Notes under the pieces: generated by a model
What the model was told of the DNA's origin: nothing
Databases searched by the model: none
The model's input: only the letters and a program-made list of their open reading frames with translations
Source of the DNA: Patescibacteria group bacterium
GTDB taxonomy: Bacteria; Patescibacteriota; Patescibacteriia; Magasanikbacterales; UBA922
DNA length: 64,000 nucleotides
Reading direction: 5' to 3'
Assembly (NCBI GenBank): GCA_028687045.1
Contig: JAQUAW010000001.1
Coordinates: forward strand, 2,034-66,033
Part shown: positions 526 to 61,807 of the stretch, piece after piece
How positions within the stretch are numbered: position 1 is the stretch's first letter
Layout of the letters: every line of letters begins with the position of its first letter
Translations under genes and position numbers: made by a program

Positions 526-558
526 GTCGAGAATACGACGAGGGATCTGTAGACTCTG
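526..558 (+). repeat. Intergenic hairpin repeat, Y-type (…GA.GGATCTGTAGAC…)
   Basis: GTCGAGAATACGACGAGGGATCTGTAGACTCTG. Paired with an inverted X-type copy at 631..678. Confidence 0.6.
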
Positions 559-630
559 ATAACCTTCTTAATCTATTTAGCAACATCTTTTAGAATCAAT
601 TAATGATTTATTAAACAAAAACATTTATAC

Positions 631-678
631 TTAAGAAAGATCCCATGTCGAGCTTCGCCGACTTTGGGATTGTGAGAA
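631..678 (-). repeat. Intergenic hairpin repeat, X-type, abutting the gltX start
   Basis: CTTAAGAAAGATCCC…TTCGCCGACTTTGGGAT is the reverse complement of the X consensus GGTCATCCYGAGCCGACGAAGTACGGCGTAAGGATCTTTCTTAAG. Confidence 0.6.
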
Positions 679-681
679 CAT

Positions 682-3438: not shown

Positions 3439-3996
3439 ATGGAATTTAAAAATAAAAAAGATTTTTTTAGTGATAATGTTATATTTTTTGATACTGAATT
3501 TACCAATATTGATACAGAAATCGGTGAACTTATGTCTATAGCACTTGTAAAGCCTAATGGTGAAGAACTTTATCTAGAATTGGCTTATGATGAAAGAAGC
3601 GTGCATCCTTGGGTAACTGAGAATGTAGTACCTTACTTGTCAGGAAACAAAATCTCCAAAGAAGAAGCTCTAAATCAAATCTGGGAGTTTATTGGTAGGG
3701 GAGAAGAGAAGCCTTTTTTGATGGCTTATGTCAATCAATTTGATAGTATTTATTGGTATAGATTATTTTCAGACCCAAAAGAGCATCCTGTTTTTTGGAT
3801 ACCAATTGATTTCGCCTCTATTTTGTTTGCTTATGGTTTTGATCCTGAAATAATGAGAGTAGAGGACTTCTATCAATGGTTGGATATTGATACCAAAAAA
3901 TATAATAAACACAACGCCTTAGATGATGCTAGAAAGTTGAAAGAAGTCTATGATAAATTTAAGAGTAGGGTCCTAGTGTCGCACAATATAGAGTAG
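3439..3996 (+). CDS. DEDDh-family 3'-5' exonuclease (DnaQ/RNase T-like)
   Basis: Exo I FFDTEFT, Exo II YVNQFDSIYW and Exo III HNALDDARKL motifs. Confidence 0.6.
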   Translation: MEFKNKKDFFSDNVIFFDTEFTNIDTEIGELMSIALVKPNGEELYLELAYDERSVHPWVTENVVPYLSGNKISKEEALNQIWEFIGRGEEKPFLMAYVNQFDSIYWYRLFSDPKEHPVFWIPIDFASILFAYGFDPEIMRVEDFYQWLDIDTKKYNKHNALDDARKLKEVYDKFKSRVLVSHNIE

Positions 3997-4001
3997 TAAA
4001 T

Positions 4002-4042
4002 TATAAAAAATAAAAAGGGGAGAGATTAGTTTAATTGTCTCT
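4002..4042. terminator. Bidirectional rho-independent terminator hairpin
   Basis: AAAAAGGGGAGAGA..TCTCTTCCCTTTTTT, a 14-bp perfect stem flanked by an A run and a T run, directly after the stop of 3439..3996. Confidence 0.65.
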
Positions 4043-4864
4043 TCCCTTTTTTAATTATACTTTTCTAATTTATGAATTTATAATTTTGAATTTTGAAACA
4101 ATTTTCAATTTAATAATTTTGAAAAATATTTTTGATAAATTTCAAAAAAAATTATAAAATGATATTTTATTTAAAATAAAATTTTAGATAAATAATCAAA
4201 AGTACTTGCTAGTTGGATGTTTAGAATTGGATTTCTGATTACTACAATAGTCATGGGGATTTTTTAATAAAAAAGATGATACACTATACCTTGAGAAATA
4301 AAGCCCTGTTTTGTAGTGTCGTAAAATATAGATAATAATGGCTAAGTAGAGCCAAAAAGAGGAGATTGTTGTACTACCGAGTAGGTATCTATAATAAGCT
4401 AATAATTACTATAAAATAGCTGTAAAAAAATAGAACAATTATGTATTAAATATTTTTTTGTTAATTTTAAAGTTACATAAGTATTGGATATTAATGTTAG
4501 ATGTAGGGTACTAATGGCTGATGAAACATTTAAATATTATCTTATATTATAGTAGTATGTCGCATAAGGTATATTGTGCGACATTGCTTTAAACTAGTAT
4601 AAATGCTACCCAACTATACTTTTTTGTGTCTCTTCCCTATCAATGTTTTTGTTGCAAACAAAATATATCTAATATATTATTTTACCTTAAATAAAAAATA
4701 GACAATTATATTATTGTGTCTATTTTTTTTATAAATTTGCAGCGACGGTCGTGTGAAGTTTGGTATGGGTAACTAAACTTCTCACGACCGTCTATAGCGT
4801 CCCCTACTCTAGTAGAAAACGCTCTACATATTATATAACTACGTTTCTGAAATCTTGTCAACTG

Positions 4865-6751: not shown

Positions 6752-6757
6752 AGAGTA

Positions 6758-6803
6758 CGGTCATCCTGAGCCGACGAAGTACGGCGTAAGGATCTTTCTT
6801 AAG
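6758..6803 (+). repeat. X-type hairpin repeat directly upstream of the ftsQ start
   Basis: CGGTCATCCTGAGCCGACGAAGTACGGCGTAAGGATCTTTCTTAAG. Confidence 0.7.
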
Positions 6804-6933
6804 AAGTACTTTTTAGAAATAATTTATGCTAATTGATTCTTATGATTTTGCTAATACTACTTAAAATATAAACATAATAAATTTTCCCCTCCATATTATT
6901 CTGTTAAATATAATTTATATTTTAGAGTTTGTA

Positions 6934-6966
6934 GGGTCTACAGATCCATCGCTCCGCTCAGGATAA
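6934..6966 (-). repeat. Y-type repeat, the inverted partner of 6758..6803
   Basis: Reverse complement is TTATCCTGAGCGGAGCGATGGATCTGTAGACCCT. Confidence 0.65.
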
Positions 6967-6967
6967 T

Positions 6968-15258: not shown

Positions 15259-15302
15259 GGTCATCCCGATCCGCCGAAGGACGGAAAGGGATCTTTCTTA
15301 AA
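15259..15302 (+). repeat. X-type repeat overlapping the serS 5' end
   Basis: GGTCATCCCGATCCGCCGAAGGACGGAAAGGGATCTTTCTTAAA. It has compensatory stem changes relative to copy 6758..6803. Confidence 0.7.
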
Positions 15303-15370
15303 TATAAATGTTTTTAAAATAATTGACGTTAATTGATTCTAAAAAATGTTTTTGAATAAATAAAAGTTAT

Positions 15371-15416
15371 CAGGGTCTACAGATCCATCATCGTATTCTC
15401 GACTCAGGATGACATT
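15371..15416 (-). repeat. Y-type repeat, the inverted partner of 15259..15302
   Basis: CAGGGTCTACAGATCCATCATCGTATTCTCGACTCAGGATGACATT. Confidence 0.65.
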
Positions 15417-16465: not shown

Positions 16466-16506
16466 AATCCCGAACCCGAGGAACGAGGGAAGGGATCTTT
16501 CTTAAA
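16462..16506 (+). repeat. X-type repeat at the start of the RdgB-Nudix gene
   Basis: TCACAATCCCGAACCCGAGGAACGAGGGAAGGGATCTTTCTTAAA. Confidence 0.7.
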
Positions 16507-16584
16507 TTAAAATTTTTAGAAAATACTTATGTTAATTGATTTTGAAAAACATGCAATTGAAATAGGTATTTTTATTATCACGTT

Positions 16585-16624
16585 TTGACAAATTTCTCCG
16601 CCAAATCGGCGGATCAATTTGTCA
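16585..16624. promoter_or_regulatory. Split palindrome TTGACAAATT–(22-bp GC hairpin)–AATTTGTCA
   Basis: The same half-sites recur at 33788..33809 and 50728..50752. Confidence 0.45.
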
Positions 16625-16628
16625 TTCC

Positions 16629-25086: not shown

Positions 25087-25087
25087 A

Positions 25088-25116
25088 TTGAGCGAAGCGA
25101 AATATCTTTCTTAAGG
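25088..25116 (+). repeat. X'-type repeat at the proS start
   Basis: TTGAGCGAAGCGAAATATCTTTCTTAAGG. Confidence 0.6.
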
Positions 25117-25227
25117 AATACTTCTATAACGCTTCAAATTAATTTTTATTAAATAACTATTTTAAATAACTTTTCTGAGAAGAAATAAATATTTTGTAAG
25201 AAAATTTTTCTTATTATAATATATTTA

Positions 25228-25253
25228 GGAAAGATTCTTCGCTCCGCTCAGAA
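25228..25253 (-). repeat. X'-type repeat, the inverted partner of 25088..25116 (about 110-bp spacer)
   Basis: GGAAAGATTCTTCGCTCCGCTCAGAA, the reverse complement of TTCTGAGCGGAGCGAAGAATCTTTCC. Confidence 0.6.
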
Positions 25254-25726: not shown

Positions 25727-26026
25727 TTAAGCCAAATACCTAATCCTATCCACTTCATTTCTACCCAATTTTTCATTCAATTTATCCACTATTTGCGTTT
25801 GATTTAGCCTTATTTCCTGTGCCATAGCTGAACTACTACAACTTATAGTCAAAGTTCTGTTTTTGAGAAAAAGTGGAAGGGCTGTTTTTGCTAAATCTTC
25901 ACCAAATATCTCAGACAACACAACTTTGGCTTCTTCAACTACTTGAGAATCATCGAGTTGTTTTTTGAGTGGGCCTTTTTGAGTGAACCTGCTGTTTAGT
26001 GTGTCTCCGAGGGAGGAAAAGGGCAT
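25727..26026 (-). CDS. DUF721/DciA-like protein
   Basis: C-terminal pattern LKNRTLTISCSSSAMAQEIRLNQTQIVDKLNEKLG..V.RIRY matches the DUF721 consensus (GVLxVxVxSSAWAxEL…LN…G). Confidence 0.5.
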   Translation of the reverse strand: MPFSSLGDTLNSRFTQKGPLKKQLDDSQVVEEAKVVLSEIFGEDLAKTALPLFLKNRTLTISCSSSAMAQEIRLNQTQIVDKLNEKLGRNEVDRIRYLA

Positions 26027-26043
26027 AAATTCTTTGTATAAAT

Positions 26044-26150
26044 AAATGGAGATAAACTTGAGATAAATAGAGATGATACAATAATTTTTCGGTTAAAACT
26101 CATCTCAAGTGTATCTCTATCTTATCTCTTCGTCTTTTATCTTATCACAC
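26044..26150. repeat. GAGATAA/TTATCTC motif cluster upstream of the DciA-like gene
   Basis: GGAGATAAACTTGAGATAAATAGAGATGATAC … ATCTCAAGTGTATCTCTATCTTATCTCTTCG. Homologous to 43707..43778 but with the two arms in swapped order. Confidence 0.55.
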
Positions 26151-26194
26151 ATCATTTCAAAATCCAAATTATTCTTAATAAACAAAGCCCAACA

Positions 26195-29134
26195 TCAAAG
26201 CTGTCTAAACTCACATATCTCCTTAAAATCACAATACTGACAAACATGTTTATTTGGGGTGGCTTTGAAATCCCCTTTTTGGATTCGTTCCATCGCGTCA
26301 AACAGCTTAGCTTCTAACTTTTCTTTGTCTTTGTCTGTACCTACAAAAGACATTTTCTTGTTTTCATTTAAATAAAAGAAAGTTAATTTGTCTATCTTTC
26401 CTAAATTTTGGTATTGTGGCAAAGTTTCCACAGCAATTTGATAAATAAGCAATTGTTGTTTGTCGTCAATTGTTAGTTTATCTTTTGGTGTACCAGTCTT
26501 ATAATCTATAATCTCCAATTTATTATCTTCCACAGCATCAATTCTATCTATTCTACCTTTGACAAAGTATTCCCCTATTTTGATTTTAAATCCGCCTTCA
26601 ATTGTCACTGGGATTGTCCAATTATTTTCTTGTGATTTGTAAAATTCTTTGAGTAATTCTTCACCTTTGGCAAAATATTCTTCTCTTTGGTTTTTACTCT
26701 TGTACCAATCAGGGATCCATTTTCTTTTGTAAATTGCGAGTAATTCTTCTTCATTTGGAATTTTTATTTTGCCCGTACTTTTGTTTTCGGTAACAGTCTC
26801 AAACAAAGATACTTGCTTAGCACTATTCATATCTTGTACTTTTTCATAAAATTCTTGCAAAGTCCCGTGAATAGTATTACCAAAACTAAAATGTGGACTA
26901 CCTTTACTTGGCAAATTCAAAACGTAAGCCAACTTGTAATTGTAAGGGCACTTTTGGTAAGTACTAATACGAGAATAAGAAAATATTTTTGGTGGAATGT
27001 ATTCTATTTCTTCCTCATCATTTTCTATTTGCGTATTTAGTTTTTTTATTTCTTGCATCAGAGTTTGTTCTTTTTCAACAAGTTTTTTTTCTTTATTATC
27101 GAAATCAAGCTCAGCCAAAAAGCGACTTATTTTCTTGGCTCTAGTTCCACCATAACTACTCGCACTTGTCAAAAATAATCTTTGTTTGGCACGAGTCACT
27201 GCCACATAGAAAAGACGACGCTCTTCCTGATAATGCAAATCATTGTTTTCCAAAAACTTTTCTCTAATAAGTTCATCTGGCAAAGCTATTCCTTCACTCT
27301 TGCGTCTAGTTGGAAATCTTTCTTCTACCAAATTTACAATGAAAACATTTTTGTATTCTAGACCTTTTGAACCATGAATAGTGATGATATTGACTGAGTC
27401 TGGTGTATCTTTGATTTGATTTATTTTGCCACCGTCCCCTGATTCGATGATGAATTCATAATTCTCGACAAAACCAGCCACATGGGCTCCAGGTACATTT
27501 TCTTCGTAAGTCCGAATAAGATCAAAAAATTGTTTCAAATGATAAATTTGTCTGATAACGTCTTTGTTTCCTTTATTTTCTTCAATAGTCAAATATGACA
27601 AATAACCAATGCTTTCCATAAATTGATAAAGCAAACTGGTTGGCTTTTCAAATTTACTTTGCTTGATTCCTTCGTGACAGGCGTTTAATAATTTGTTAGC
27701 CATTTCTATCGCGTGAGTAGACAAAAATAATTCTTGAGCTCGCTTGAGTGTTTCATAATAAGACATACTTTTTCTCTTGGCTGTACTTGTCACTTTTTGC
27801 AAATCGTTTTGACTAAATTCCAAAAACGGCATTTTTAGCAAACGAAAAAATGCTTTGTCATCATAAATATTAGTCAGAAGTGTGAGGAAATTGAAAGCAT
27901 CAATCACAATATCTTGACGATAAAGCCCTGCTGAAGCAAGATACTCAAAAGGAATGCCAAAGCTCTCCAAAGCGTTGCTAAATGGCTCTACGTGAGAATT
28001 GGCACGAACAAGAATTGCGAAATCATCCCAATTACTATCTTTATCATTTTCTTTTATTTCCACTATTTTGTTTATCACTCCTACTACTTCTTCATCAAGT
28101 GTTTCATAGTGTAAATGTTCTATTTGAGTGTGCAAATCTTTGAGACCACTTTCCAATCTTTTACTAATTTGTAATTTTTCTTCTAGACGATGTGGATTAT
28201 TATTTTTGATAGAGTTGTAAGCCAAATCCAAGATTTCTTGACCAGAACGATAATTGTCTGTCAGAACAATATTTTTGGCATTAGGATAATCTGTTTTGAA
28301 ATTCATGATGATAGCAACATTGGAACCACGAAAAGAATAGATAGCTTGGTCATCATCCCCTACTACTGTCAGTTTATTATTTTCGCCTGCTAACAATTTT
28401 ACCAATTGATATTGCGCCCAATTGACATCTTGAAATTCATCTACCATTATATATTTAAATCTTTTTTGTAATTTTTTGAGTACGTTTGGTCTGTCTTGCA
28501 AAAGTTTGACTGCATAAAAAATAATATCACCAAAATCCATTGACTCATTATCCAACAATAATTTTTGATATTTATTATAGGCATCAGCCAACTCAATCAA
28601 TCTATTTTTTTCTTGTTTTTCAGCTTCGTCTTTGTCCAAAATCAAAGACTTTACATAATCCAAATAAGCTTGAGGTGTTATCATTTCATCTTTGGCTTTG
28701 GAAAAGTGTGTAAGAAGTTCATGAATATAACGATTTGGACTACCCATTGGTCGATAATAATCAAAATTAAAATCATAAATATGTTCTCGCAAAAGCAACC
28801 AAGCGTCGGTCTCATTTAATAATTTGAAATGATTTGGTAGACCAATTTCAAGACCATATTCTTCCAAAACTTTTTGACAAAAACTATGAAATGTAGAAAT
28901 TTGCATTTCAGTATAATTGGCTTCAATCAGGTCGTCTACTCTATCTTGCATTTCTTGTGCTGCTTTGTCAGTAAAAGTCAAAGCCAAAATTTCTTCGGGC
29001 AAAGCCAATTTTTGCTCGACAATGTGAGCAATTTTTTTGGTAATGACGGTAGTTTTGCCAGTACCAGCACCAGCAATAATCAACAAATTACCATCGTTGT
29101 ATTCTATGGCTTCTTTTTGGTTTTTATTTAACAT
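26195..29134 (-). CDS. UvrD/PcrA-type superfamily-1 helicase fused to a C-terminal PD-(D/E)XK nuclease with a Cys cluster (AddA/RecB-like)
   Basis: N-terminal GAGTGKTT Walker A. C-terminal RIDRIDAV..IIDYKTG plus CQYCDFKEIC. Confidence 0.75.
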   Translation of the reverse strand: MLNKNQKEAIEYNDGNLLIIAGAGTGKTTVITKKIAHIVEQKLALPEEILALTFTDKAAQEMQDRVDDLIEANYTEMQISTFHSFCQKVLEEYGLEIGLPNHFKLLNETDAWLLLREHIYDFNFDYYRPMGSPNRYIHELLTHFSKAKDEMITPQAYLDYVKSLILDKDEAEKQEKNRLIELADAYNKYQKLLLDNESMDFGDIIFYAVKLLQDRPNVLKKLQKRFKYIMVDEFQDVNWAQYQLVKLLAGENNKLTVVGDDDQAIYSFRGSNVAIIMNFKTDYPNAKNIVLTDNYRSGQEILDLAYNSIKNNNPHRLEEKLQISKRLESGLKDLHTQIEHLHYETLDEEVVGVINKIVEIKENDKDSNWDDFAILVRANSHVEPFSNALESFGIPFEYLASAGLYRQDIVIDAFNFLTLLTNIYDDKAFFRLLKMPFLEFSQNDLQKVTSTAKRKSMSYYETLKRAQELFLSTHAIEMANKLLNACHEGIKQSKFEKPTSLLYQFMESIGYLSYLTIEENKGNKDVIRQIYHLKQFFDLIRTYEENVPGAHVAGFVENYEFIIESGDGGKINQIKDTPDSVNIITIHGSKGLEYKNVFIVNLVEERFPTRRKSEGIALPDELIREKFLENNDLHYQEERRLFYVAVTRAKQRLFLTSASSYGGTRAKKISRFLAELDFDNKEKKLVEKEQTLMQEIKKLNTQIENDEEEIEYIPPKIFSYSRISTYQKCPYNYKLAYVLNLPSKGSPHFSFGNTIHGTLQEFYEKVQDMNSAKQVSLFETVTENKSTGKIKIPNEEELLAIYKRKWIPDWYKSKNQREEYFAKGEELLKEFYKSQENNWTIPVTIEGGFKIKIGEYFVKGRIDRIDAVEDNKLEIIDYKTGTPKDKLTIDDKQQLLIYQIAVETLPQYQNLGKIDKLTFFYLNENKKMSFVGTDKDKEKLEAKLFDAMERIQKGDFKATPNKHVCQYCDFKEICEFRQL

Positions 29135-29164
29135 ACTGAGCGGAGCGAAGTATCTTTCCTAAGG
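29135..29164 (+). repeat. X'-type repeat at the helicase-nuclease start
   Basis: ACTGAGCGGAGCGAAGTATCTTTCCTAAGG. Confidence 0.6.
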
Positions 29165-29283
29165 AAAATATCAATAATAAAAAAAAACTTCATCTATATT
29201 AAAATTGTTTAAGCTAGTATTATTCTACTACAATTCTTCAAAAAAACAAAATCTCCCCAACTAAGAGAGATTCTATTCCGCGT

Positions 29284-29320
29284 ATATCCGCGTAAATATC
29301 CGTTTAATCTGCGTTTTTAA
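29284..29320. repeat. Four phased TCCGCGT-like units with a 10-11-bp period
   Basis: TCCGCGTatatCCGCGTaaataTCCGTTTaaTCTGCGT. Related units occur at 46213..46239 and 19271..19287. Confidence 0.5.
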
Positions 29321-29463
29321 ACTCCACAATTACATCCACCACAACAACTGTCTTCTTTTTCTGTTTCCTCGTCACAAGCGCAAAAACCTTCATTATTGCA
29401 ACAGGTATCTTCTTGCTTTGGCTCTTCTTGTGAATCTTTTTCTTCTTTTGTTTCGTCTGACAT
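29317..29463 (-). CDS. Candidate 48-aa micro-protein: acidic N-terminus and a C-terminus with 8 Cys (…TCCNNEGFCACDEETEKEDSCCGGCNCGV). Not in the ORF track because it is under 60 aa.
   Basis: The ATG lies 13 bp downstream of the stop of 29477..30676 on the same strand, and the frame is open for 147 nt. Confidence 0.35.
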   Translation of the reverse strand: MSDETKEEKDSQEEPKQEDTCCNNEGFCACDEETEKEDSCCGGCNCGV

Positions 29464-29476
29464 ATATTTATTTTAG

Positions 29477-43267: not shown

Positions 43268-43696
43268 TTATCTTAATTTTCTGTATTTGTTGGCAACCCT
43301 GATTCTGTTCATTTCTTTATCAATAAGTGCTTGCAGTCTAGCATAATCAACATCTTCAATATTTTTGACTTTTTCCATTTCTTCTTCAGCTCTCTTATGA
43401 GCTTCTTCAGCTCTAGCAAGATCAATATTATCAGCTCTTTCAGCACTATCAGCCAAGATGACTAATTCACTATTTGCTCTCACTTCCAAAAAACCACCAG
43501 AGATAGCATAAGGATGTTCACCATCTTTATCTTTGATTCTCATTTCTCCAGCTTGAAGAACAGAAACCATAGGAATATGGCTTGGCAATACGGTAATTTC
43601 ACCAGAAGTTGTTGGAATACTTACTTGAAAAACATCATTTTCGTAAACTTTTTTTTCTGGTGTGATTATTGTAAATTTTAAAGTTTGTGTTGACAT
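43268..43696 (-). CDS. atpC: F1 ATP synthase epsilon subunit
   Basis: 142 aa with a beta sandwich and a helical hairpin. Last gene of the atp operon. Confidence 0.8.
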   Translation of the reverse strand: MSTQTLKFTIITPEKKVYENDVFQVSIPTTSGEITVLPSHIPMVSVLQAGEMRIKDKDGEHPYAISGGFLEVRANSELVILADSAERADNIDLARAEEAHKRAEEEMEKVKNIEDVDYARLQALIDKEMNRIRVANKYRKLR

Positions 43697-43706
43697 AGAT
43701 ACAAAT

Positions 43707-43778
43707 TTTATCTCAATATATCTCTATTTTATCTCTATCTTATTATAAGGAGATAAATGGAGATAATGTAGAGATATG
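43707..43778. repeat. GAGATAA/TTATCTC motif cluster between atpD and atpC
   Basis: TTTATCTCAATATATCTCTATTTTATCTCTATCTTATTATAAGGAGATAAATGGAGATAATGTAGAGATATGG. Confidence 0.55.
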
Positions 43779-43785
43779 GTTTTAT

Positions 43786-45174
<1,389 letters not shown>

Positions 45175-47729: not shown

Positions 47730-47744
47730 ATATTTTTTACTAAT

Positions 47745-47775
47745 CTTGAGCGGAGCGAAAGATCTGTAGACCCTG
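47745..47775 (+). repeat. Y-type repeat upstream of the atpA start
   Basis: CTTGAGCGGAGCGAAAGATCTGTAGACCCTG. Confidence 0.6.
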
Positions 47776-47804
47776 CGAACGCTTCTTTTAATTTAAATGT
47801 TTTT

Positions 47805-48191: not shown

Positions 48192-48200
48192 ATATTTACG

Positions 48201-48243
48201 TCATTCCGACCCGCCGAATCGGCGGGGAGGGATATTTCTTAAA
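48201..48243 (+). repeat. X-type repeat upstream of the atpH start
   Basis: TCATTCCGACCCGCCGAATCGGCGGGGAGGGATATTTCTTAAA, with the perfect inner stem CCCGCCGA/TCGGCGGG. Confidence 0.65.
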
Positions 48244-48308
48244 TCTAAATTATTTTAATTTACAAAACTTTCAAATGATTCTAAAATACTTTTTCAATTA
48301 ATTTATTA

Positions 48309-50842: not shown

Positions 50843-50880
50843 ACTTTCGTAATTTCGTACTGTTCGTATTTCGTATCCCT
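50843..50880. repeat. TTCGTA array (4 units with an 8-9-bp period) downstream of tatD
   Basis: CTTTCGTAATTTCGTACTGTTCGTATTTCGTATCCCT is a direct repeat of 51790..51830. Confidence 0.6.
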
Positions 50881-51742: not shown

Positions 51743-51830
51743 GGATACGAAATACGAAAATTTACGAAAGTACGAACTACGGAACTTTCGTATGTTCGTA
51801 CTTTTCGTATTTCGTATCCCTATTAACGAA
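51743..51830. repeat. Long imperfect palindrome built from the same TTCGTA/TACGAA units, upstream of tatD
   Basis: GGATACGAAATACGAAAATTTACGAAAGTACGAAC…CTTTCGTATGTTCGTACTTTTCGTATTTCGTATCC. Confidence 0.6.
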
Positions 51831-59680: not shown

Positions 59681-59754
59681 ACTAGTAAACACAACAGATT
59701 CGGCCTAATAAACCGATAAACTAATAAACTCAATATTTCATGAAGCAACATGCA

Positions 59755-59786
59755 CAGGATCTACAGATCTCTCGCTACGCTTCGAG
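59755..59786 (-). repeat. Y-type repeat upstream of the def start
   Basis: CAGGATCTACAGATCTCTCGCTACGCTTCGAG. Confidence 0.55.
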
Positions 59787-59804
59787 ATTTATTATAGAAT
59801 TCCT

Positions 59805-60302: not shown

Positions 60303-60438
60303 TTAAATATACTAATATACAAATTATACGAATGATACTAATAATACAAATACTCAATTAAACAATTATTTAGTAGAAAAAAATTAGTAATATTTGTATC
60401 ATTTGTAACATTAGTATATTGGTATAATATTCATTAGT

Positions 60439-61362: not shown

Positions 61363-61370
61363 CCAATTTT

Positions 61371-61413
61371 GTCATCCTGAACCGACGAAGTACGGTGAAG
61401 GATCTTTCCTAAA
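61371..61413 (+). repeat. X-type repeat between fmt and the GIY-YIG gene
   Basis: GTCATCCTGAACCGACGAAGTACGGTGAAGGATCTTTCCTAAA. Confidence 0.7.
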
Positions 61414-61437
61414 ATAATTTTAATTAATAAATAATTT

Positions 61438-61728: not shown

Positions 61729-61749
61729 TTGGAAGTGTATAAATTTAAA

Positions 61750-61784
61750 AAAGATTCTTCGTCCTCTACGGGACTCAGAATGAC
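61750..61784 (-). repeat. Diverged X-type repeat in inverted orientation, downstream of the GIY-YIG gene
   Basis: AAAGATTCTTCGTCCTCTACGGGACTCAGAATGAC. Confidence 0.5.
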
Positions 61785-61807
61785 AGTTAGAAAGATTAGT
61801 TTAATCC

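What the first reader, a model, noticed from the sequence alone, without database searches (positions are those of the whole stretch)
26044..26150. GAGATAA/TTATCTC repeat clusters present twice with their two arms in swapped order; each carries an SD-like AAGGAGATAAATGGAGATAA with a 4-6-codon mini-ORF
Seen: the 43707..43778 cluster lies between atpD and atpC. The 26044..26150 cluster lies between the helicase gene and the DciA-like gene. The arm composition is the same in both (ATCTCAA..ATCTCTAT..ATCTCTATCTTAT plus GGAGATAAA..GAGATAA..AGAGATA), but the order is permuted. Each has ATGGAGATAA… following a GGAG-like box, giving M-E-I-M-stop or M-E-I-N-L-R-stop.
Inference: this is a mobile or recombining element, possibly with a leader-peptide or attenuator function, or a protein-binding array. 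It is not DnaA boxes, because no TTATCCACA is present.
Basis: seen in the sequence. Interest (0 to 1): 0.5.

Follow-up and report, generated by a model that had tools for sequence, protein, structure and literature searches.

The report
Phased GAGATA repeat arrays between genes
The two clusters are real members of a repeat family found almost only in one group of tiny groundwater bacteria (Candidatus Magasanikbacteria): opposed arrays of a 9-base motif spaced one DNA helical turn apart, most likely docking sites for an unknown DNA-binding protein and not a leader peptide or RNA switch.

Summary
Both clusters exist as described. Each has three GAGAT cores and three ATCTC cores at 10-11 bp spacing, in convergent order at 26049-26128 and divergent order at 43710-43775. 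No other place in the window comes close, and simulated sequence never reaches this density. They belong to a dispersed intergenic family: 26 of 29 matches among 185,579 species genomes are Candidatus Magasanikbacteria, with at least 7 arrays in the sister genome and at least 16 in another. The conserved unit is T-D-GAGATA-A. The bases between units differ from array to array, and unit number ranges from 2 to 17 per arm. Arrays sit in gaps between unrelated genes, including dciA, three ATP synthase gaps, groES-groEL, parA-parB, recA, ligA, fba and tkt. They persist at the same site in close relatives and are absent in more distant ones. Tests for an RNA hairpin, a terminator, a strand-specific promoter or a conserved mini-ORF were negative, and this organism barely uses Shine-Dalgarno sequences. 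The best reading is a set of phased protein-binding sites on duplex DNA, with the binding protein unknown. A selfish foldback-like repeat is the main rival. The family appears undescribed and is moderately interesting.

The parts
26046..26077 (+). dciA-upstream array, arm 1: three units in GAGATA orientation (ATGGAGATAAA, CTTGAGATAAA, ATAGAGATGAT), with cores at 26049, 26060 and 26070
26078..26099 (.). Central spacer of the dciA-upstream array. It is AT-rich and not conserved in relatives, where the gap between the innermost cores ranges from 23 to 44 bp.
26100..26131 (+). dciA-upstream array, arm 2: three units in TATCTC orientation (TCATCTCAAG, GTATCTCTAT, TTATCTCTTC), with cores at 26102, 26113 and 26124. 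It is followed by degenerate TATCTTATC copies up to about 26146.
43707..43738 (+). atpD-atpC array, arm 1: three units in TATCTC orientation, with cores at 43710, 43720 and 43731
43739..43746 (.). Central spacer of the atpD-atpC array (CTTATTAT on the plus strand). The unit flanks around it complete a TATAAT hexamer on the sense (minus) strand, at about plus-strand 43743-43748, and an equally good TATTAT on the plus strand.
43747..43778 (+). atpD-atpC array, arm 2: three units in GAGATA orientation (AAGGAGATAAA, ATGGAGATAAT, GTAGAGATATG), with cores at 43750, 43760 and 43771
26046..26066 (+). Mini-ORF string ATGGAGATAAACTTGAGATAA (MEINLR*). It is a by-product of one unit that happens to start with ATG, it is antisense to the flanking genes, and it is not conserved.
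43757..43771 (+). Mini-ORF string ATGGAGATAATGTAG (MEIM*). It is the same kind of by-product.

Best explanation
The two clusters are members of a clade-specific, dispersed family of intergenic iteron arrays. The unit is a 9-bp motif, T-D-GAGATA-A (TTATCTCHA on the other strand), repeated every 10 or 11 bp, which is one turn of B-DNA. Units are usually organised as two opposed arms, either convergent (GAGATA arm then TATCTC arm, as upstream of dciA) or divergent (as between atpD and atpC).

I read them as clustered recognition sites on double-stranded DNA for a sequence-specific protein of this lineage. That protein would load side by side on one face of the helix on each arm and build a nucleoprotein complex that fills the short gap between two co-directional genes.

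What is shown: the motif, its phasing, its conservation against diverging spacers, its restriction to the clade, and the absence of RNA-type signatures.

What is inferred: that a protein binds, and that the complex modulates passage or initiation of transcription across the gap as an operator, roadblock or architectural site. The identity of the protein is unknown. A TrmB-family winged-helix protein encoded next to arrays in several relatives is only a lead.
For: Shown by tool results:
- The core is invariant across 259 units while the positions between cores vary from array to array. The profile is -2 T at 89%, -1 T/A/G and never C, then GAGAT, then A at 93%.
- 185 of 202 same-orientation neighbours are 10 or 11 bp apart, with a mean of 10.6 bp.
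- Mirrored units in the two arms are no more complementary at flanking positions than permuted pairs: at -1, 0.40 observed and 0.40 expected for convergent arrays, and 0.20 against 0.33 for divergent arrays. In predicted folds only the cores pair. The arms are therefore independent motif copies, not a selected stem.
- Arm sizes are very unequal (3+5, 4+13, 12+4), and single direct arms of 3-4 units exist without a partner.
- Cores are retained at orthologous sites while the spacers diverge. This holds upstream of dciA in relatives with 81-100% DciA identity, at atpD-atpC in a relative with 84% atpC identity, and at groES-groEL and three other contexts. In the groESL-type composite, the two units not required by the search pattern are intact in 17 of 18 cases across the nine aligned sequences, while the neighbouring spacers differ visibly between the four contexts.
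- Taxonomic specificity is high. 26 of 29 genome-collection hits are Candidatus Magasanikbacteria, and there are 0 hits in the viral collection.
- There is no strand bias of any kind relative to the flanking genes, as expected for a duplex-DNA site.

Precedent from the literature:
- pSM19035 parS and operator arrays are 7-10 contiguous 7-bp sites in mixed orientation, bound cooperatively by a ribbon-helix-helix protein (PMC9499535).
- TrmB-family proteins recognise TATCAC-N5-GTGATA (PMC4158304), one base away from this hexamer.
- A TrmB-like gene lies beside or within 4.4 kb of arrays in L165, L173, L182 and L184.
Against: - No binding protein is identified and nothing here tests binding.
- The neighbouring genes share no function, and the mix of tandem, convergent and divergent contexts equals the genomic background. 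There is therefore no sign of a regulon or of a link to promoters.
- Sites are gained and lost between fairly close relatives. The atpD-atpC gap is only 20 bp in L247 and 6 bp in L248. The dciA gap is 20-40 bp in relatives with 64% identity or less. The dciA array is decaying in L249.
- Unit number is hypervariable, with perfect recent expansions in JACPGR01. That looks unconstrained.
- The same genomes hold other inverted tandem-array families with 7-9 bp periods (ATACGAA, AAAGTT, AAGGC). This suggests a general repeat-generating process, and it shows that helical phasing is not universal among such arrays.
- The promoter of the TrmB-like gene itself carries TTATCCACA, not GAGATA units.
Confidence: 0.42

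Rival explanations
1. The arrays are a selfish foldback-like dispersed repeat with no host function. Arms built from tandem 10-11 bp sub-repeats spread to new intergenic sites by an unidentified transposase or recombinase that recognises the core, or by illegitimate recombination. They then expand and contract by slippage, and the cores are kept alike by the mobilising enzyme or by gene conversion.
For: - Copies are dispersed next to unrelated genes, with placement matching the background of intergenic types.
- Filled and empty sites occur among relatives, and the fill looks like a clean insertion of about 70 bp into a spacer of about 20 bp.
- One lineage shows decay (L249).
- Unit number is hypervariable with perfect repeats, and two similar arrays flank a 745-aa orphan gene and a RhuM/DUF559 island in JACPGR01.
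- A composite of about 110 bp with similarity outside the cores recurs at four or more unrelated loci.
- Several other families with the same architecture but different units share these genomes.
- The architecture matches eukaryotic foldback and Galileo elements, whose inverted arms are internally repetitive (PMC3573991 and PMC4079207, listed).
Against: - No target-site duplication or defined terminus is visible at the two window copies or at the filled-versus-empty atpD-atpC comparison.
- No transposase lies next to any array. Only one integrase neighbour was seen (L153).
- Arrays at different loci in one genome share little beyond the 9-bp core, unlike typical MITE families.
- Cores are kept intact at orthologous sites while the spacers diverge.
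- Arrays recur in gaps within ATP synthase and groESL operons in separate lineages.
Confidence: 0.3
2. The arrays act at the RNA level. The opposed arms form an interrupted hairpin in the polycistronic transcript that serves as a processing or stability site. Alternatively, the UAUCUC arm is a pyrimidine-rich loading site (for example for Rho) that the GAGAUA arm masks, tuning expression of the downstream cistron.
For: - Arrays lie inside operons whose subunits are needed in unequal amounts: atpD-atpC, atpH-atpA, atpI-atpB and groES-groEL.
- Both window arrays fold better than shuffled sequence, with z of -3.8 and -2.5 on the sense strand.
- In the groESL-type composite, a 12-bp helix is kept in all 9 sequences, with one compensatory pair (UA in 4, AU in 4) and G-U-compatible single changes.
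- The innermost units of the dciA array carry the complementary variants GAGATG and CATCTC.
Against: - Only the cores pair, and the 4-5 nt between them form internal loops.
- Flanking positions of mirrored units show no excess complementarity.
- Relative to controls that keep the cores but shuffle the spacers, the two window arrays have z of +0.15 and -0.12.
- There is no sense-over-antisense stability bias (21 against 14, mean -0.4 kcal/mol). For the atp array the antisense strand folds better, at -28.2 against -19.7.
- The longer arm shows no consistent side relative to transcription (my tally from the arm counts: 5 arrays with the longer GAGATA arm on the sense strand, 3 with the longer TATCTC arm), and single arms exist without a partner.
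- No terminator-like site was found.
- There is no Rfam match above noise.
- The compensatory pair rests on only about 4 independent loci.
- An invariant core across hundreds of units is not needed for pairing.
Confidence: 0.16
3. The arrays are a leader-peptide or attenuator device, in which the SD-like GGAG plus ATGGAGATAA mini-ORF is translated and controls the downstream gene.
For: The strings exist: MEINLR* at 26046-26066 and MEIM* at 43757-43771. The second is preceded by AAGGAG.
Against: - Both ORFs are on the strand opposite to all flanking genes.
- ATG precedes only 22 of 354 units, and GGAG plus ATGGAGAT occurs in 3 of 47 arrays.
- dciA orthologues lack the ATG.
- An SD-like tetramer lies upstream of only 2 of 56 genes in the window.
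- The stop codon TAA is simply part of the motif.
Confidence: 0.02
4. The arrays are clusters of divergent DnaA boxes, comparable to oriC oligomerisation arrays or to titration clusters such as datA or the B. subtilis DnaA-box clusters.
For: - TTATCTCnA shares positions 1-5 and 9 with TTATCCACA.
- An 11-bp register with two opposed arrays resembles the low-affinity box arrays of E. coli oriC (my own knowledge).
- One array lies directly upstream of dciA, the helicase-loader gene.
Against: - Cumulative GC skew runs straight through both sites.
- A genome holds 7-16 or more arrays with up to 17 units per arm.
- Exact TTATCCACA boxes occur in Magasanikbacteria loci more often than my rough base-composition estimate predicts. 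One is conserved upstream of the TrmB-like gene in L165 and L173, and exact boxes also lie just upstream of its homologues in L182 and L184, so the clade seems to use the canonical box.
- No dnaA gene or origin region was available to test the idea.
Confidence: 0.03

Closest known systems
Heptad arrays of plasmid pSM19035 (parS and operator sites bound by the ribbon-helix-helix protein omega/ParB)
   Same: Both are arrays of a short, sequence-specific unit, present in variable number (7-10) and in mixed direct and inverted orientation. In pSM19035 the units are bound cooperatively and the arrays lie in gaps next to genes (PMC9499535).
   Different: The pSM19035 unit is 7 bp and contiguous, whereas here the unit is 9 bp at a 10-11 bp period. 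Those arrays are few sites on one plasmid with a known binding protein. Here there are 7-16 or more chromosomal sites, the arms are cleanly separated by orientation, and the binding protein is unknown.
Hexamer direct repeats with 10-11 bp periodicity bound by OmpR/PhoB-type response regulators (pho boxes and similar; my own knowledge)
   Same: Both have a conserved hexamer plus 4-5 variable bases, repeated once per helical turn so that the proteins sit on one face of the DNA.
   Different: Those sites usually have 2-6 units in one orientation, lie at a fixed distance from a -10 box, and belong to a functional regulon. Here there are opposed arms, up to 17 units, no fixed relation to a promoter and unrelated neighbouring genes.
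Thermococcales glycolytic motif TATCAC-N5-GTGATA, bound by TrmBL1/Tgr of the TrmB family
   Same: The half-site differs by one base (TATCAC against TATCTC), and its inverted order matches the divergent array type. TrmB-family proteins oligomerise. A TrmB-like gene lies next to arrays, and fba and tkt are among the array neighbours (PMC4158304).
   Different: The archaeal motif is a single palindrome with a fixed 5-bp gap, not a phased multi-unit arm. It is an archaeal system. The bacterial TrmB-like protein matches only the N-terminal HTH domain and has no sequence match in the PDB. Binding was not tested.
Foldback-type transposable elements of eukaryotes (Drosophila FB, Galileo, Tetris)
   Same: Both have inverted arms built from tandem short sub-repeats, arms of variable and unequal length, and a variable central loop (PMC3573991 and PMC4079207, listed).
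   Different: Those elements are kilobase-scale and eukaryotic, with known transposases and target duplications. Here the arrays are 60-200 bp, no transposase or duplication was seen, and mobility is unproven.
Bacterial interspersed intergenic repeats: REP/REPIN, pneumococcal BOX and RUP, MITEs
   Same: All are short, intergenic and present in many copies per genome. They often lie inside operons and can form hairpins. BOX elements have a variable number of internal boxB modules (PMC3116915 and PMC3733652; PMC3049150).
   Different: REPs are single 20-40 bp palindromes with a GTAG or CGTC head and an associated RAYT gene. BOX and RUP copies share full-length similarity. Here only a 9-bp core is shared, it is repeated in helical phase, and the arms do not pair outside the core.

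Membership tests
DnaA-box cluster | 9-mers matching TTATCCACA with at most 1-2 mismatches | tested here: not met
   The unit TTATCTCHA matches at 6 of 9 positions. There is no exact box in the window, and 1-mismatch boxes occur at the chance level (23 found, 22.3 expected), none inside the arrays.
DnaA-box cluster | Same motif present at the chromosomal origin next to dnaA | not testable with these tools
Intrinsic (Rho-independent) terminator | GC-rich stem-loop followed directly by a T run | tested here: not met
   There are 0 terminator-like sites at either window array or at two related arrays. By my reading of the 22 array flanks printed, about 4 are followed at once by a run of 5 or more T.
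Leader-peptide attenuator | Conserved short ORF with a ribosome-binding site, on the same strand as and upstream of the regulated gene | tested here: not met
   The ORFs are antisense to the flanking genes, ATG occurs in 22 of 354 units, GGAG plus ATG occurs in 3 of 47 arrays, and dciA orthologues lack the ORF. The genome lacks SD usage.
Known RNA family (Rfam 15) | Match at or above a family's gathering score | tested here: not met
   There is no match in the whole window. At E up to 1 the only matches are eukaryotic miRNA hairpin models, far below their thresholds.
Structured RNA hairpin in general | Base pairs supported by compensatory change and strand-specific G-U tolerance | tested here: inconclusive
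   Across the family the result is negative, with no excess flank complementarity and no strand bias. One 12-bp helix in the groESL-type composite shows one compensatory pair, but it rests on about 4 independent loci.
MITE | Terminal inverted repeats | tested here: met
   The opposed arms act as inverted repeats.
MITE | Target-site duplication and full-length similarity among copies | tested here: not met
   No direct repeat flanks either window array or the filled atpD-atpC site when compared with the empty site. Copies share only the core, apart from the composite subfamily.
REP/REPIN | 20-40 bp imperfect palindrome with a conserved GTAG or CGTC head, and a RAYT gene in the genome | tested here: not met
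   The unit is a non-palindromic 9-mer with no GTAG or CGTC head. A Y1 transposase gene was seen only in relative L246, next to a different repeat type. Whole genomes could not be searched.
Foldback-type element | Inverted arms made of tandem sub-repeats, with variable arm length | tested here: met
   Arms have 2-17 units, the two arms are often unequal, and the central spacer varies.
Foldback-type element | Demonstrated transposition (a transposase, or insertion polymorphism with duplications) | not testable with these tools
   The only evidence is presence or absence between species. No transposase was found beside any array.
Iteron or operator array (protein-binding repeats) | Conserved core with variable spacers, repeated in helical phase | tested here: met
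   The profile and spacing support this: 92% of same-orientation neighbours are 10-11 bp apart, with a mean of 10.6 bp.
Iteron or operator array (protein-binding repeats) | A cognate protein that binds the units | not testable with these tools
   The only candidate is a TrmB-like wHTH gene near arrays in four loci. No binding data exist.
TrmB/TGM operator | Inverted hexamers TATCAC-N5-GTGATA | tested here: not met
   The hexamer matches at 5 of 6 positions. The inner cores of divergent arrays are 4-22 bp apart rather than a fixed 5 bp, and the units come in phased multiples.

The most novel reading that the evidence does not exclude
The arrays may be the visible half of an undescribed system in these bacteria of the Candidate Phyla Radiation (CPR). 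A clade-specific DNA-binding protein, perhaps the TrmB-like winged-helix protein, would polymerise along phased 9-bp iterons in the gaps inside essential operons (ATP synthase, groESL, parAB, dciA). It would thereby set the relative output of neighbouring cistrons in organisms that lack Shine-Dalgarno-based tuning. The arrays themselves would spread and resize like a prokaryotic foldback element.
Probability: 0.2. Interest if true: 0.7.

Novelty: new variant of a known kind. Interest (0 to 1): 0.48.

Why it matters
Gene regulation and genome dynamics in the Candidate Phyla Radiation are almost unexplored, because these organisms are uncultured and encode few recognisable regulators. A sharply defined, clade-specific 9-bp motif, repeated in helical phase at dozens of intergenic sites, gives a concrete handle. 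It can be used as bait to find the binding protein, as a marker for the lineage, and as a test case for whether small genomes tune operon output with protein-DNA arrays or merely tolerate a new kind of foldback-like selfish repeat. The finding also serves as a caution for annotation: SD-like and ATG-containing strings inside such repeats are not leader peptides.

Tried and rejected
1. Promoter in the central spacer. Boxes resembling a -10 element occur as often on the antisense strand as on the sense strand (19 against 20 of 31 arrays). The promoter scanner's hits are at the shuffle level. The resemblance of TTGAGATAAT to an extended -10 box was noted but has no support.
2. Terminator. None was found.
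3. RNA hairpin selection. Permutation of mirrored units, spacer-shuffled folding and the sense/antisense comparison were all negative for the family.
4. Regulon logic. The Pfam annotations of about 50 flanking genes show no common theme.
5. A direct-arm search pattern (17-19 specified bases) was too unspecific. It gave more than 120 and then 65 viral contigs. I therefore used 24-base inverted patterns, which gave 0 viral hits.
6. No dnaA gene or origin region could be found in the fetched DNA.
7. Orphan neighbours have no Pfam or NCBIfam match. These include the 745-aa gene bracketed by two arrays in L157 and the 128-aa gene after dciA.
8. The TrmB-like protein has no sequence match in the PDB.
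9. Four literature searches found no description of these repeats.
10. Exact look-ups of atpC and atpD from the window found no record, and the contig found with the NuoB-like protein stopped short of the gap.

Full report
**Source of the window**

The window is AT-rich (about 32% G+C) and most genes are on the minus strand. Its atpC is 100% identical to a protein that NCBI names from a Patescibacteria MAG contig of 68,348 bp, and 98% identical to that of Candidatus Magasanikbacteria isolate SO_2016_LW3_49 (JBAYVA01). Its DciA protein is found on 22 groundwater metagenome contigs.

**Checking the observation**

Read on the plus strand, 26049-26128 holds GAGAT at 26049, 26060 and 26070 and ATCTC at 26102, 26113 and 26124. 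The region 43710-43775 holds ATCTC at 43710, 43720 and 43731 and GAGAT at 43750, 43760 and 43771.

- No other 120-bp window of the 64 kb has even four such cores.
- In 300 Markov simulations the densest 90 bp held 2-4 cores and never 6.
- The heptamer GAGATAA is not enriched overall (12 found, 10.9 expected), so the signal is the clustering.
- The neighbours are a UvrD/PD-(D/E)XK helicase-nuclease (26195-29134) and DciA (25727-26026), and atpD (43786-45165) and atpC (43268-43696), all on the minus strand.

Each arrangement is its own reverse complement. The swapped order is therefore a real difference: the arms are convergent at dciA and divergent at atpD-atpC.

The quoted 20-mer AAGGAGATAAATGGAGATAA is present only in the atp cluster. 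The two mini-ORFs exist as strings, but on the strand antisense to all neighbouring genes.

**A family, not two oddities**

A 24-base pattern for the convergent form (two GAGATA, a gap of 20-50, two TATCTC) found nothing in 2.9 million viral contigs. In one genome per species of 185,579 species it found 29 loci. Of these, 26 come from eight Candidatus Magasanikbacteria assemblies and 3 from Bacteroidota, whose unit is different.

The divergent pattern found 66 metagenome loci. About 25 are low-GC contigs with the same unit, including the two largest contigs of the sister genome.

The sister genome carries at least seven arrays: helicase-dciA, atpD-atpC, groES-groEL, upstream of fba, downstream of a TrmB-like gene, and two more. 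JACPGR01 carries at least 16, plus 4 single arms, on the stretches fetched.

**Anatomy**

- From 259 units the profile is A-n-R-T-D-GAGATA-A. The base before GAGAT is never C.
- Of 202 same-orientation neighbour distances, 74 are 10 bp and 111 are 11 bp, with a mean of 10.6 bp, which is the helical repeat of B-DNA.
- Within an array the 4-5 bases between cores are often alike, because of local tandem duplication. Between arrays they differ (GAGATAAGGTT, GAGATACATT, GAGATATATT, TTATCTCAACC and others).
- Arms hold 2-17 units and are often unequal.
- The gap between the innermost cores ranges from 1 to 44 bp in the 31 arrays measured.
- Single arms of 3-4 direct units occur.
- A composite of about 110 bp (two TATCTC units, three GAGATA units at 8 and 10 bp spacing, a spacer of about 27 bp, then one TATCTC unit) recurs at groES-groEL, upstream of ligA and at two further contexts.

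**Context**

Every array is intergenic and usually fills most of a short gap between co-directional genes, ending 10-70 bp before the next start codon. The neighbours are unrelated. They include dciA, atpC, atpA, atpB, groEL, parB, recA, ligA, fba, tkt, a thioredoxin-reductase-like gene, pilM, a glycosyltransferase, an aminotransferase, glmS, an integrase and a RhuM island. The split of roughly 26 tandem, 2 convergent and 1 divergent contexts equals the background of this genome, where 38, 1 and 1 of the 40 gaps fall in those classes.

**Evolution**

The atpD-atpC array is nearly unchanged in a relative whose atpC is 84% identical. The same gap differs elsewhere:

- It is only 20 bp and 6 bp in two relatives at 72% identity.
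- In a relative at 85% identity it holds a different inverted array built from AAGGC/GCCTT units. That genome nevertheless has a GAGATA array upstream of dciA.

The dciA array is present in five species with 81-100% DciA identity. There the three TATCTC units sit 22-23 bp before the ATG, while the spacer and the upstream arm are remodelled. The array is decaying in a sixth lineage. In relatives with 64% identity or less the gap is only 20-40 bp. The arrays are therefore gained in a low-GC subclade, mostly kept, and sometimes lost.

**Tests of RNA-level and coding readings**

- Predicted folds pair only the cores, and the bases between cores form internal loops.
- Mirrored units are no more complementary at flanking positions than permuted pairs.
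- Against controls that keep the cores and shuffle the spacers, the two window arrays have z of +0.15 and -0.12.
- Sense and antisense transcripts fold equally well on average (21 against 14 arrays). For the atp array the antisense strand folds better.
- No terminator-like site was found, and no Rfam family matched.
- Boxes resembling a -10 element in the central spacer are as common antisense as sense.
- One exception deserves mention. In the composite, a 12-bp helix is intact in all nine sequences, with one compensatory pair, but these represent only about four independent loci.
- For the mini-ORFs, ATG precedes 6% of units, GGAG plus ATGGAGAT occurs in 3 of 47 arrays, and dciA orthologues lack the ATG.
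- Only 2 of 56 genes in the window have any SD-like tetramer upstream, below the 6% background. An SD-like box carries no weight in this organism.

**Interpretation**

The family shows an invariant 9-bp core, variable spacers, helical phasing, use of both orientations, single arms, no strand bias and a sharp taxonomic limit. Together these point to recognition on duplex DNA by a sequence-specific protein of this clade.

The closest functional precedent is the pSM19035 array of heptads in mixed orientation, bound cooperatively by a ribbon-helix-helix protein (PMC9499535). The 10-11 bp hexamer periodicity recalls OmpR/PhoB-type sites (my own knowledge).

A lead for the binding protein is a 244-aa TrmB-family protein:

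- Its gene has an array immediately downstream in two species.
- Another array lies upstream of the neighbouring fba gene.
- Homologues of the gene lie 2.6-4.4 kb from arrays in two further contigs.
- Archaeal TrmBL1/Tgr bind TATCAC-N5-GTGATA, one base from this hexamer (PMC4158304).

This is not a test. The gene's own promoter carries TTATCCACA rather than GAGATA units, and the protein has no PDB sequence match.

What such a complex would do is inferred, not shown. Possibilities are an operator, a roadblock or an architectural role across intercistronic gaps.

**The main rival**

Several features are what a selfish repeat would show:

- heterogeneous neighbours;
- gain and loss between relatives;
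- decay in one lineage;
- perfect recent expansions;
- pairs of similar arrays bracketing an orphan gene and a RhuM/DUF559 island.

The same genomes also hold other inverted tandem-array families with 7-9 bp units:

- ATACGAA at window 51745-51817 and in the atpA-atpG gap of L247;
- AAAGTT and AAGGC in L246;
- an ATAC-rich pair at window 60305-60425.

The architecture matches eukaryotic foldback elements.

Against this rival, I saw no target duplication, no defined termini and no transposase next to an array, and little similarity between copies beyond the core. Cores are retained at orthologous sites while the spacers diverge. The two readings are not exclusive, because the protein that reads the core could be a mobilising enzyme.

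**Verdict**

The leader-peptide, SD and attenuator idea is rejected. The DnaA-box idea is unlikely. The protein-binding array reading is the best supported (0.42), with a foldback-like selfish repeat (0.30) and an RNA-level role (0.16) as live rivals. I found no description of this family in the searchable literature. I rate it a new variant of known kinds of interspersed or iteron repeats, of moderate interest.

Noticed in passing
window 526-681, 6752-6967, 15265-15403, 16466-16628, 25087-25253, 29135-29476, 47730-47804, 48192-48308, 59681-59804, 61363-61437, 61729-61807: A second dispersed intergenic repeat, unrelated to the GAGATA arrays. On the sense strand of the downstream gene it reads GGATCTGTAGAC(C/T)CT ... 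AGAATCAATTAA ... TTAAGAAAGATCC, followed by a short GC-rich hairpin just before the start codon. It also occurs in relatives (L246 4176-4271 and L247 5345-5440, between atpF and atpH).
   Followed up: no
window 51745-51817 and 50845-50876; L247 7449-7522: Inverted tandem arrays of a 7-8 bp unit, ATACGAA/TTCGTAT, whose outer 18 bp pair perfectly. In a relative the same unit fills the atpA-atpG gap. This is a separate family with the same opposed-arm architecture.
   Followed up: partly
window 60305-60425: Another opposed pair of short tandem repeats (AAATATAC about 5.6 times, then ATTTGTATC about 3.9 times), lying upstream of the formyltransferase gene.
   Followed up: no
L246 9867-10000, and also 521-630 and 3536-3570: In a relative with 85% atpC identity, the atpD-atpC gap holds a different opposed array built from AAGGC(C/T)/GCCTT units at a period of about 9 bp. 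Other gaps hold AAAGTT/AACTTT arrays. IS1595-family and Y1 (IS200-like) transposase genes are inserted downstream of atpC.
   Followed up: partly
whole window (56 genes): Shine-Dalgarno-like tetramers (GGAG, GAGG, AGGA) occur upstream of only 2 of 56 genes, at or below the 6% random background. This organism appears to initiate translation without SD pairing.
   Followed up: partly
window 26027-26194 compared with L001 2316-3000: Strains with an identical DciA protein carry an extra 172-aa methyltransferase gene between the helicase-nuclease gene and the array. The window lacks it, and the intergenic DNA is strongly diverged although the protein is identical.
   Followed up: partly
window 3997-4864: An 868-bp gap between convergent genes coincides with a change of GC-skew sign (positive before about 4 kb, negative after). 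The gap holds AT-rich tandem repeats at 4062-4192. It may be a replication terminus region.
   Followed up: no
L173 3486-3494, L165 2458-2466, L182 963-971 and 1105-1113, L184 5643-5651: Exact TTATCCACA (canonical DnaA-box sequence) lies upstream of the TrmB-like regulator gene. In L165 and L173 the sequence shows it about 18 bp upstream of a TTGACA -35 hexamer; in L182 and L184 only the coordinates place it just upstream of the gene.
   Followed up: partly
L155, L160, L176; L180, L183, L190, L200, L204, L212, L215 and others: Opposed 10-11 bp arrays that also contain GAGATA, but with different flanks (CCAGAGATAA, GGGAGATATTT, CGCAGAGATA), occur in Bacteroidota genomes and in mid- to high-GC metagenome contigs. 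They may be unrelated families caught by the search pattern, or a wider class.
   Followed up: no
L189, L197, L207, L210, L225 (the last two named as human-gut contigs): A nearly identical palindromic site, TATATCTC(G/A)(T/C)TTTATCTCAAAATATTGACATTTGAGATAAAACGAGATAA, with TTGACA at its centre. It looks like a classic operator over a -35 box.
   Followed up: no
L238 10759-12923: More than 2 kb of a 10-bp satellite (GATATCTCNC units) on a metagenome contig of 36% G+C.
   Followed up: no
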